Shown here in pieces: positions 39,001-42,000 of a stretch of 64,000 bases of DNA. The DNA lies in the NCBI GenBank assembly GCA_965287045.1, contig OZ336877.1, positions 63,612,001 through 63,676,000 of the forward strand, written 5' to 3'. The stretch is from Carcharhinus amblyrhynchos (Eukaryota). Position 1 is the first letter of the stretch. Every line of letters begins with the position of its first letter. The position numbers are program-made.

Positions 39001-42000
39001 TTGAGATAAATCAACACCACTTCAACTTTTGATTCCTTAAACCTTTTTAAATTGAAATTGTAGAGTGAGACAGGTCACGATAGAATGATGAAGATATTAG
39101 GTTAGACAAATAATTTGGAATATCTGCAGGATCCCTCTAAATCATTGTGTTTACATCCCCCTACGGCCTTACTCCTTTCTAACCCCCTAACCTGCTCCAA
39201 CTCTACCTTCCTATTCCATAATCTACAGCCATCCTAACGGTCTCTTCCTTATATCTCGTCCTTACCATGGCAGCTATGCCTTCACCTGCTAGGTTCCAGT
39301 TTTTGGAGGTTCACCCTTAATATCCCTCAATCTCCTTTTACATTCTACTTAAAACTTACCTCAGTGAAGTTCTTTTGGTCATGCCTGCTAACTTTGTTTT
39401 AGCATCAATCTTTCTCTGCGAAAAACGTTTGGATCTTTTTCCACATTAAAGGTATTATGAAAAGGTAAGTTGTTGCTATTGTTGAAAGTAACTGTAAGTG
39501 TGAATAGGTCAGCTGACCCATCAAATCTGCTGCTCCTACAATCTAACCTGTCAAAATTCTACCACACTTCTTTAATCAATGGAGGGAAAGTTTTCTGTCA
39601 ATAGTTTTTGAACATTTAGAGGGATCCTGCAGATATTCCAAATTATTTGTCTAACCTAATATCTTCATCATTCTATCGTGACCTGTCTCACTCTACAATT
39701 TCAATTTAAAAAGCATGATTCCACTCCAGCTTCCATGGCTGAAAAGTACTGTGGCCTCAATTTATGCACATGCTTGGAACTATGGAGCACCCATCAATGA
39801 GACCCTACTACCACTGGAACCTGTTGTAAGGCTTCCAGCTAAATCCTGGTGGCCATTCACAATGAAATAAGCCACCCTGATGAGGGCAAAATGTTGGCAC
39901 AGGTGGAAAGTAGTTTCTAAATGTCCACTGAAGTAACTCTGGCTGCCCAGAGGATGGCCATGCCACCATTTTTTCTGATCTTGGTAATATGGTATGGTAA
40001 TGGGAAAATGTTAGGATTCTTTCCTTATGCTTCCCCTGGCATTTTGCCAGTTTTCCCACCTCCCAATTTGTCACAGAATCTCTACAGTGCAAAAGGAGGT
40101 CATTTGGCCCATTGAGTCTGCACCAACCACACTCCACCCAGGCTCCATTCCCATTACCCCACATATTTACCTTGCCAATCCCATTGACACTAGGGTCAAT
40201 TTAGCATGGCTAATCAGCCTAACCTACACATTGTTGGACTGTAGGAAGAAACCGGAGCAAACCCATGCAGACATAAGAACATAAGAAATAGGAGCAGGAG
40301 TAGGCCATCTAGCCCTTCGAGCCTGCCCCGCCATTCAACAAGATCATGGCTGATCTGAAATGGATCAGTTCCACTTTCCTGCTTTCTCCCTATAACCCTT
40401 AATTCCCTATAACCTATCTACCTGTGACTTAAATATATTTAGCGAGGTAGCCTCCACCACTTCAACGGGCAGAGAATTCCAGAGACTTACCACCCTTTGA
40501 GTGAAGAAGTTCCTCCTCAACTCCGATCTAAACTGCCACCCCCCTTATTTTGAGGCTGTGCCCTCTAGTTCTGCTATCCTTTCTAAGCGGGAAGAATCTC
40601 TCTACCTCTACCCTATCTAGCCCCTTCATTATCTTATATGTCTTTATAAGATCTCCCCTCAGCCTTCTAAACTCCTACGAGTACGACCCAGTCTATTCAA
40701 TCTCTCCTCATAGGCTAACCCCCTCATCTCCGGTATCAGCCTAGTGAACCTTCTCTGCACTCCCTCCAAGGCCAATATATCCTTCCGCAAATGCAGTGAC
40801 CAAAACTGCACACAGTACTCCAGCTGCGGCCTCACCAGTGCCCTGTACAGTTGCAGCAAGACCTCCCTACTTTTATATTCTATCCCCCTCGCTATAAAGG
40901 CCAACATTCCATTCGCCTTCTTGATCACCTGCTGCACCTGCAGACTGGGTTTTTGCATTCATTCACAAGGACCCCCAGGTCCCTCTGCACCGTAGCACGC
41001 TGCAACTTTTCTCCTTTTAAATAATAATCCCTCCTACTATTATTTCTACCAAAGTGGATAATCTCACATTTGCTAACATTATACTCCGTCTGCCAGGTCC
41101 TCGCCCACTCGCTCAGCCTATCCAGATCTCACTGCAGACTTTCCACACCCTCCACGCAATTTGCTTTTCCACTCATTTTTGTGTCATCAGCAAAGACATG
41201 GGGCAAATGTGCAAACTTGAGACAGACAGTCACCTGAGGCTGGAATTGAACCTGTGTCCCTGGCACAGTGCTAACCACTGTGTCACCGTGTCCTCATGCC
41301 CATCAATGGGCTGGGAAATTTCAGCCCTAGGACTTAAGCACAAGAATCGGAGCTGACTCTGCGGTGTAATACTGAGTAAGTGCTGTTCCCACAGAGGTGC
41401 AGTCTTTCAGTTCAGCCACAGCAGAGGTCCATCTGCCTTCCTGGGTGAACATTAAATATCCCATGGCATTAGTTCAAAGTCAGAGAGGGGAATTATCCCC
41501 AGTAATATTTATCCCCAGTCAACATCACAAAAGCAGATTAACTGGTCCTTAGCACATTGCTGGTTATGGGATTTTTCTGCATCTAAATTGGTTGCCATGT
41601 TTTGCTACATTATTTCAGTGCTAACATTTCAGAAATATCCATTGGCTGTAATGGCTTTAAGACATCCAGTAGTTATGAAATGCAAGTCTTTCTTTTTATT
41701 GAAACTTTGCACAAAATGAGAGTCTTTCCACTCTCTTTGATTTTAACGTAGCACCGTGCTTTTTTTTAACTGTGTACCTCCTCCCAGGTCACAGATTTTT
41801 AGTCCTTTCACAAAATCTTCCTTCATTATCAGAAAATCTCAGAGAAGAATCTAGGGCCGGAGTTTGCAGTCCCAATGCAAAGCCGAGGCGCATCAGGCAG
41901 ACTTTAACAATGGTGGCAGGAGCCATATTTCCTTCTCTAACTTTTTTGGCACCCGCAATGTTTATCAGCGCAGGAAAGGAGGGAGGGGGGTAGGGCAGTC

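What the first reader, a model, noticed from the sequence alone, without database searches (positions are those of the whole stretch)
39043..39713. Perfect 100-bp inverted duplication: recent template-switch insertion predicted to form a 100-bp dsRNA stem in TOX pre-mRNA
Seen: two exact 100-nt reverse-complement arms 471 nt apart in otherwise heavily decayed sequence, with no flanking target duplication. The left arm appears to interrupt an old L2-like relic, so it is probably the new copy. Inference: a very recent templated insertion (replication template switch or end-joining) rather than a TIR transposon. If transcribed it would be a substrate for ADAR or Dicer, and it could mediate inversion of the spacer.
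Basis: partly seen in the sequence, partly recalled or inferred. Interest (0 to 1): 0.7.

Follow-up and report, generated by a model that had tools for sequence, protein, structure and literature searches.

The report
Perfect inverted duplication, shark TOX intron
A 100-base stretch in the first intron of a shark's TOX gene has been copied in reverse-complement 471 bases upstream, most likely by a known copying slip during DNA replication or repair; it is real in this sequence but ordinary in kind.

Summary
Arms 39043-39142 and 39614-39713 are exactly 100 nt, 100% complementary and 471 nt apart. Chance gives 12-16 nt in 30 shuffles.

The window is shark, not human. TOX exon 1 lies at 2014-2118 (+), and its 35 residues are 100% identical to Mustelus asterias TOX. 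No other TOX exon is in the window, so the repeat sits about 37 kb into intron 1 on the sense strand.

- The arm has no third copy in the 64 kb.
- Similarity stops dead at all four arm ends.
- There is no adjacent target-site duplication.
- The left arm differs in base composition from both neighbours (0.53% of positions are as extreme); the right arm fits its surroundings.

Best reading (about 0.5): one templated reverse-complement insertion, four-point type 1-4-3-2, with the right arm as source. This is a known mutation class, though longer than usually catalogued.

"Very recent" is not required. Zero differences in 100 nt only bounds the age below about 2x10^7 generations at shark mutation rates.

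The L2 identity of the interrupted sequence could not be shown with any tool. An assembly or processing artefact (the length is exactly 100) and a multi-copy TIR family remain untested, because no reads or genome were available. Interest is low.

The parts
39043..39142 (+). Left arm: reverse-complement copy of 39614-39713, inferred to be the inserted (derived) copy
   Evidence: Exact 100-nt match. Its base composition differs from both neighbours: total-variation distance 0.23 and 0.29, while the neighbours differ by 0.11. Only 0.53% of 12,740 window positions are as extreme. Purine fraction is 0.58, against 0.35 and 0.29 in the flanks.
39143..39613 (+). Spacer of 471 nt: old, decayed, pyrimidine-rich sequence. 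It has a short GTT-type run near 39470-39485 that looks like a retroelement tail (identity not proven).
   Evidence: No other copy in the window by blastn or nhmmer. No Pfam or Rfam family. Purine fraction of the first 200 nt is 0.30, like the left flank.
39614..39713 (+). Right arm: inferred source (template) of the copy
   Evidence: Its composition fits both neighbours (distances 0.05 and 0.15; 84% of positions are at least as extreme).
38955..39042 (+). Left flank: pyrimidine-rich sequence, inferred (not shown) to have been contiguous with 39143 onward before the insertion
Evidence: Compositional likeness to the start of the spacer. The start coordinate is approximate, read off the sequence.
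2014..2118 (+). TOX exon 1 coding part (35 codons, donor AAG|GT at 2118|2119). It fixes the gene's strand and places the repeat in intron 1.
   Evidence: 100% identity over the 35 residues to M. asterias TOX isoform X4, 97% to Scyliorhinus TOX; no other TOX exon in the window.

Best explanation
This is a single templated insertion. During replication or break repair, a growing 3' end left its template at 39042|39143. It primed about 0.5 kb away and copied 39713 back to 39614 from the opposite-sense strand. It then returned to the original site, with no detectable loss or gain of other sequence. In the four-point template-switch model this is type 1-4-3-2. It can equally be drawn as snap-back synthesis by the minus-strand 3' end at 39143 with a 471-nt loop.

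The right arm is the source and the left arm is the new copy, dropped into older pyrimidine-rich (probably retroelement-derived) intron sequence. The product is a perfect 100-bp inverted repeat in TOX intron 1. In the pre-mRNA it is predicted to fold into a 100-bp duplex.

Shown: the repeat, its sharp ends, its uniqueness in the window, the compositional foreignness of the left arm, and the gene context. Inferred: the mechanism, the direction of copying and any RNA consequence.
For: - Exact 100-nt reverse-complement arms 471 nt apart, against 12-16 nt in 30 shuffles.
- Similarity stops abruptly. Beyond the arms, in-register identity is 14 of 50 (outer) and 11 of 50 (inner), and local alignment scores lie within the shuffles. 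There is therefore no older, longer inverted repeat underneath.
- No third copy of the arm in 64 kb by blastn or nhmmer.
- No direct repeat abutting the unit.
- The left arm is compositionally foreign to both neighbours, which resemble each other; the right arm fits its context.
- The geometry matches type 1-4-3-2, which creates an inverted repeat and made up 31% of high-confidence human-chimp events (PMC5453318, passages).
- Template switching is documented to create perfect hairpin stems in one step (PMC8794818, passages).
- DNA transposons are only about 1-1.5% of a related houndshark genome, against 31% LINEs (PMC13434710, passages). This lowers the prior for a TIR element.
Against: - No ancestral or outgroup sequence, second haplotype or reads were available, so 'insertion' is inferred from composition only.
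- The copy is long for the class. The expected copied length used for great apes was about 10 nt (PMC7954356, methods passage). The largest pattern in the rRNA/miRNA study was 59 bp (PMC8794818). Foldback inverted insertions at yeast breaks were mostly about 5-34 bp (PMC11724301, search listing only).
- No junction microhomology can be seen; any would be hidden inside the arms.
- The length is exactly 100, a round number that no natural mechanism predicts.
- The claim that one old element runs across the left arm could not be demonstrated with Pfam, homologue, phmmer or Atlas searches.
Confidence: 0.5

Rival explanations
1. Assembly, polishing or later processing artefact: the inverted copy is not in the animal's genome.
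For: The arm length is exactly 100 nt at 100% identity, which suits software or editing better than biology. The left arm is foreign to both neighbours, as a pasted segment would be. Nothing here tests read support.
Against: No N run or gap lies anywhere in the window. There is no vector or plasmid similarity. From my own knowledge, not tested: a missing-adapter long read gives a palindrome without a spacer, not 100-nt arms around 471 nt, and long accurate reads would span a 671-nt unit many times over. I did not establish which assembly or technology the window comes from.
Confidence: 0.2
2. A non-autonomous TIR DNA transposon (MITE-like, 671 nt, or 655 nt with a palindromic TTAA/TA target inside the arm ends) that inserted as one unit.
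For: Perfect long terminal inverted repeats are what a young TIR element looks like. TTAA, TA and TTTAAA lie symmetrically 3-9 nt inside both arm ends, so a palindromic target duplication would merge into the repeat. Genome-wide copy number is untested.
Against: - No direct repeat abuts the arms.
- With TTAA as the target, 4 further outer bases would have to be complementary by chance (about 1/256); with TA, 5 bases.
- There is no second copy of arm or spacer in 64 kb.
- The spacer looks old and decayed, and resembles the left flank in composition, while the left arm does not.
- DNA transposons are rare in a related shark (PMC13434710).
Confidence: 0.1
3. A small inversion made by one staggered and one blunt break. 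Fill-in of the stagger duplicates 100 nt, leaving inverted copies at both ends of an inverted segment.
For: This mechanism gives exactly the pattern arm - inverted segment - arm' without target duplications. That rests on my own knowledge of Drosophila inversion breakpoints, not on a call.
Against: It predicts that each arm stays contiguous with ancestral sequence on one side. The left arm is compositionally discontinuous on both sides, and the left flank and spacer start are both pyrimidine-rich on the same strand. That suggests the spacer was not inverted relative to the flank.
Confidence: 0.07
4. A retroposed insert with an inverted 5' part (twin-priming type), bounded by the 7-mer TGATTCC as target-site duplication.
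For: TGATTCC occurs 6 nt before the left arm and 2 nt after the right arm. From my own knowledge, retroelement target duplications vary in length and twin priming can duplicate sequence in inverted orientation.
Against: - The 7-mer is offset unequally and is expected by chance in about 4% of such searches (my estimate: 625 offset pairs over 4^7).
- There is no A-rich or microsatellite tail at either end.
- There is a composition break between the left arm and the spacer, which should be one continuous cDNA.
- No young related copies are in the window.
Confidence: 0.05
5. An old inverted repeat whose arms are kept identical by gene conversion.
For: Perfect identity within otherwise decayed sequence.
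Against: There is no residual similarity beyond the arm ends. From my own knowledge, 100 nt is short for efficient conversion.
Confidence: 0.03

Closest known systems
Short-range template-switch mutations (four-point model, type 1-4-3-2; Loytynoja and Goldman 2017, PMC5453318; Walker et al. 2021, PMC7954356)
   Same: A nearby segment is copied in reverse complement into the nascent strand, creating a perfect inverted repeat in one event. The order of switch points matches.
   Different: The copied length (100 nt) and the distance to the source (471 nt) are larger than the tens of bases usually reported. No ancestral sequence is available here to show the event. The full size distributions are in figures and supplements that I could not see.
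Foldback / snap-back templated inverted insertions at double-strand breaks (polymerase theta end joining, SD-MMEJ, yeast foldback insertions; PMC11724301, PMC5728401, PMC4912351: search listings only)
   Same: A 3' end folds back on its own strand, primes on a few bases, copies, and the break is then joined. The orientation of the copy fits a minus-strand 3' end at 39143.
   Different: Reported inserts are mostly about 5-34 bp with short loops (PMC11724301, listing). Here the insert is 100 nt with a 471-nt loop.
Hairpin RNA and miRNA loci born by template switching (PMC8794818 passages; PMC10710096 search listing only)
   Same: A one-step origin of a perfect stem inside transcribed sequence.
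   Different: Here the stem is 100 bp with a 471-nt loop, not a roughly 22-bp-scale pre-miRNA. No expression or processing data exist.
MITEs / TIR DNA transposons
   Same: Terminal inverted repeats around a short non-coding core.
   Different: No adjacent target-site duplication and no further copy in the window. The core looks older than the arms.
Intronic inverted retroelement pairs that form dsRNA edited by ADAR (for example inverted Alu pairs; my own knowledge)
   Same: An intramolecular long duplex in a pre-mRNA intron.
   Different: Those arms are two independent, diverged element copies, like 48265-48541 / 49181-49481 here at about 80%. These arms are a perfect local duplication.

Membership tests
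Template-switch mutation (four-point model, type 1-4-3-2) | The inserted fragment is the exact reverse complement of a nearby segment | tested here: met
   100 of 100 nt, with the source 471 nt downstream.
Template-switch mutation (four-point model, type 1-4-3-2) | The ancestral sequence lacks the fragment; the flanks at points 1 and 4 were adjacent | tested here: inconclusive
   No outgroup or second haplotype was available. Composition shows the left arm is foreign and its two neighbours are alike. Attempts to show one old element running across the arm failed.
Template-switch mutation (four-point model, type 1-4-3-2) | Short range and short copied fragment | tested here: inconclusive
   It is local (within 671 nt), but the fragment is 100 nt. 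That compares with an expected length of about 10 nt (PMC7954356) and a largest reported pattern of 59 bp (PMC8794818).
TIR DNA transposon / MITE | Terminal inverted repeats | tested here: met
   This feature is trivially met by any inverted duplication.
TIR DNA transposon / MITE | Target-site duplication abutting both ends | tested here: not met
   no direct repeat of 2-10 nt at the arm ends. The only candidates are palindromes inside the arms (TA, TTAA, TTTAAA) and an offset 7-mer.
TIR DNA transposon / MITE | Multiple dispersed copies in the genome | not testable with these tools
   There are 0 further copies in this 64-kb window. No eukaryotic genome collection was on hand.
Twin-primed retroelement insertion | A 3' tail plus flanking target-site duplication, with the inverted part continuous with the arm | tested here: not met
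   No tail. The 7-mer is offset 6 and 2 nt. There is a composition break between the left arm and the spacer.
Assembly artefact | No reads support the junctions | not testable with these tools
   No reads were available. There are no N runs in the window and no vector match.
Long intramolecular dsRNA (ADAR / Dicer substrate) | A long perfect duplex in a transcribed strand | tested here: inconclusive
   The predicted fold has the 100-bp stem: MFE -247.2 kcal/mol against -126.9 +/- 4.9 in 20 shuffles. The repeat lies downstream of TOX exon 1 on the sense strand. Transcription, editing and small RNAs were not testable.

The most novel reading that the evidence does not exclude
A single template switch ten times longer than those usually catalogued has created, in one step, a perfect 100-bp hairpin inside the primary transcript of the lymphocyte regulator TOX. 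On this reading it is a still-polymorphic, newborn hairpin-RNA locus that is hyper-edited or diced in shark lymphoid tissue and affects TOX expression, or that inverts its spacer in some individuals.
Probability: 0.06. Interest if true: 0.5.

Novelty: new member of a known kind. Interest (0 to 1): 0.2.

Why it matters
If real, it is a clean natural example at the long end of the template-switch size range, showing how a perfect RNA hairpin can appear in an intron in one mutational step. It would also give a simple presence/absence marker for houndshark populations or species. It does not open a new question: the mechanism class, dsRNA-forming intronic inverted repeats and their likely mild consequences are all known. 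If it is an artefact, it matters only as an assembly or quality-control flag.

Tried and rejected
- Other copies of the flanks, spacer or arm in the window: none by blastn or nhmmer. No in-window consensus could therefore be built to show one old element running across the left arm.
- Pfam on 10 ORFs around the repeat, on 10 other long ORFs and on 5 read-through frames with stops as X: no transposon or LINE family. Only sub-threshold DUF7940 (E 0.014-0.015) and TMC (E 0.07).
- A second L2-looking tail at 19295-19528 (-) used as bait. The word-based homologue search scored 21 candidates, none at E<=10. Full phmmer gave 2 hits, both tandem-repeat proteins rather than LINE ORF2.
- ESM Atlas on the two flanking ORFs: best scores 0.76 and 0.79, unnamed clusters, uninformative.
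- Rfam: 0 matches at gathering level for the whole window. One chance-level match in 38500-40300 (16 bits against a gathering score of 86).
- Vector contamination, considered because the arm holds adjacent PstI and BamHI sites: no plasmid match.
- A recalled resemblance of the right flank's minus-strand frame to a Harbinger-type transposase: no Pfam support; dropped.
- Tandem repeats or tails at the unit's ends: none.
- HMG-box motif scan for further TOX exons: none. tblastn with 3 of the 10 fetched TOX proteins found exon 1 only.
- Reading-frame continuity across the left arm: the relic changes frame several times, so this was not used as evidence.
- One homologue search was left unused, because no query from this decayed sequence was likely to share exact words with a reference.

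Full report
**Observation**

The window has no N, 41% G+C and a CpG observed/expected ratio of 0.24.

The repeat finder reports arms 39043-39142 and 39614-39713: 100 nt, 100% complementary, 471 nt between them. A script confirms exact reverse-complement identity. The first base beyond each of the four arm ends is a mismatch, so the length is exactly 100.

In 30 dinucleotide-preserving shuffles, the longest perfect inverted repeat within 1.5 kb was 12-16 nt. In the real window outside the unit it is 19 and 21 nt.

Among 87 non-self blastn pairs in the window, median identity is 79% and the 95th percentile is 91%. Besides the arms, only one pair of at least 30 nt reaches 93%: 51 nt at 96%, 12860/15605. 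The repeat is therefore real in this sequence and a strong outlier.

**Where it is**

I take the window for shark, not human. That rests on the exon match below; the Rfam scan also found no family, including no SRP/7SL, anywhere in the window.

An open frame at 1834-2142 (+) holds a start codon at 2014 and a donor AAG|GT at 2118|2119. I searched those 35 codons alone, plus 7 upstream in-frame codons to reach the tool's minimum length. They match annotated TOX proteins of sharks and a ray: 10 proteins at E<=0.01 among 11 candidates. Identity over the 35 residues is 100% to Mustelus asterias TOX isoform X4 and 97% to Scyliorhinus.

A local tblastn with 3 of the 10 fetched proteins found only this exon (E 5e-16 to 4e-20). 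Everything else scored E>=0.015, and an HMG-box motif scan found nothing.

Only this one exon was searched, on its own.

The repeat thus lies 36.9 kb downstream of exon 1 on the sense strand. By inference this is intron 1.

**Anatomy**

- **No third copy.** The arm has no third copy in the 64 kb, by blastn or nhmmer. The left flank, spacer and right flank also have no detectable relatives in the window.
- **Sharp ends.** Beyond the arms, in-register identity is 14 of 50 (outer) and 11 of 50 (inner), which is random. Local alignment scores of the flanks fall inside their shuffle distributions. There is no older, longer inverted repeat underneath.
- **No target-site duplication.** No direct repeat of 2-10 nt abuts the unit. 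Two things are worth recording:
  - A 7-mer TGATTCC lies 6 nt before the left arm and 2 nt after the right arm. My estimate is about a 4% chance for such a find.
  - The palindromes TA, TTAA and TTTAAA lie 3-9 nt inside both arm ends. A palindromic target duplication could hide there, but 3-5 further outer bases would then have to be complementary by chance.
- **No family or vector match.** There is no Rfam family, no tandem repeat or tail at the ends and no plasmid or vector similarity.

**Which arm is the copy**

- **Purine fraction.** The left arm is 0.58, between flanks of 0.35 and 0.29. Only 0.11% of window positions show as large a step. The right arm is 0.42, between 0.43 and 0.46.
- **All four bases.** I used this measure because it was not chosen after seeing the purine skew.
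  - The left arm differs from its left and right neighbours by total-variation distances of 0.23 and 0.29. The two neighbours differ from each other by only 0.11. Only 0.53% of 12,740 positions differ as much from both neighbours.
  - The right arm gives 0.05 and 0.15, and 84% of positions are at least as extreme.

The left arm therefore looks like a foreign block dropped into one homogeneous pyrimidine-rich stretch, and the right arm looks native.

- Pfam found nothing.
- A second L2-looking tail at 19295-19528 (-) retrieved no LINE protein by the word-based search or by full phmmer, which gave 2 tandem-repeat proteins.
- The ESM Atlas was uninformative.

From recall, the translated left flank and spacer do resemble consecutive parts of the C-terminal region and tail of L2-clade LINEs. 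That is a lead, not a test.

**Mechanism**

The simplest account is one templated insertion. A 3' end at the 39042|39143 site primed 0.5 kb away, copied 39713 back to 39614 in reverse complement, and rejoined.

In the four-point model the order of switch points is 1-4-3-2. This type creates an inverted repeat and made up 31% of high-confidence human-chimp events (PMC5453318, passages). Snap-back synthesis by the minus-strand 3' end at 39143 with a 471-nt loop describes it equally well. The orientation of the copy fits that drawing.

The class is known to create perfect stems in one step (PMC8794818, passages). What is unusual is the size:
- The expected copied length used for great apes was about 10 nt (PMC7954356, methods passage).
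- The largest pattern in the rRNA/miRNA study was 59 bp.
- Yeast foldback insertions were mostly about 5-34 bp (PMC11724301, search listing only).

The full size distributions are in figures and supplements that I could not see, so how far out 100 nt lies is uncertain.

**Age**

Zero differences in 100 aligned positions only bounds pairwise divergence below 3.0% (95%); the 50% point is 0.69%.

The one directly measured shark mutation rate is 7x10^-10 per bp per generation, 95% CI 1.4-14.1x10^-10, in the epaulette shark (PMC10587355, abstract and passages). With that rate the bound is about 2x10^7 generations, or 1-11x10^7 over the confidence interval.

The repeat is younger than every other repeat in the window. 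It need not be polymorphic or very recent.

**Consequences**

As RNA, the 671-nt unit folds with the full 100-bp stem: MFE -247.2 kcal/mol, against -126.9 +/- 4.9 for 20 shuffles.

That such a duplex would be edited by ADAR, and only inefficiently diced in vertebrate somatic nuclei, is established knowledge of those enzymes. It is not a result obtained here.

Inversion of the spacer by recombination between 100-nt arms is possible but should be rare (my own knowledge). Nothing here tests any of this.

**Rivals**

- **Artefact (0.2).** It cannot be excluded without reads. The exactly round length of 100 nt is the one feature that no natural mechanism predicts.
- **TIR element (0.1).** It fails the target-duplication test and has no further copy in the window. 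Its genome-wide copy number is untested. DNA transposons are rare (about 1-1.5%) in a related houndshark, against 31% LINEs (PMC13434710, passages).
- **Staggered-break inversion (0.07), twin priming (0.05) and conversion-maintained old repeat (0.03).** The composition breaks on both sides of the left arm, the lack of a tail and the sharp arm ends speak against these.

**What stayed unchecked**

These could not be checked: read support, the second haplotype, genome-wide copy number of the arm, the orthologous intron in relatives, a proper repeat annotation, and any RNA data.

**Verdict**

It is a new instance of a known kind of mutation, at the long end of its size range, and of low general interest unless it proves polymorphic or RNA-active.

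Noticed in passing
window 2014-2118 (+): TOX exon 1 coding part (35 codons, donor AAG|GT). It is 100% identical to Mustelus asterias TOX isoform X4, and the rest of the window holds no further TOX exon.
   Followed up: yes
window 12804-12902 and 15605-15655: A tight hairpin repeat: 45-nt arms, 93% complementary, 9-nt loop. A 51-nt direct copy of its right half lies 2.7 kb away at 96%. It looks like a small multi-copy hairpin-forming element.
   Followed up: no
window 48265-48541 and 49181-49481: Two SINE-like copies in inverted orientation at about 80% identity, 0.6-1.1 kb apart. 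The same family occurs at 40068-40274, 26370-26545, 990-1166, 35359-35465 and 24184-24240. This is an ordinary dsRNA-capable inverted pair, useful as a contrast to the perfect one.
   Followed up: partly
window 40407-41128 (-), 33792-34073 (+), near 56176 (-), 50204 (+), 12585 (+): Fragments of a CR1-like LINE ORF2 C-terminus with a shared motif ending in WN.LP. Pfam has no model that matches them. The CR1 label is from recall.
   Followed up: partly
window 14178-15035 (-): A 285-codon open frame in the intron with no Pfam match. A stretch near its C-terminal end faintly recalls a reverse-transcriptase motif (recall only).
   Followed up: partly
window 54391-55098: Minisatellite-like tandem array that stays open in several frames on the minus strand (repeating TQAQAAV / LRLRLLLL translations). 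CpG o/e is 0.03 in 54501-55000.
   Followed up: no
window 15751-16750 and 61001-61750: G+C-rich (0.55-0.66) but CpG-poor stretches with long overlapping open frames on both strands and similar-looking translations. Probably copies of one G+C-rich repeat.
   Followed up: no
window 19295-19528 (-): A second decayed retroelement tail with a WNSLP-type motif. Used as bait for LINE proteins without success.
   Followed up: yes
window about 39125-39135 and its mirror in the right arm: Adjacent PstI and BamHI sites (CTGCAGGATCC) inside the arm. I checked for vector origin and found no plasmid match, so I take it for chance.
   Followed up: yes
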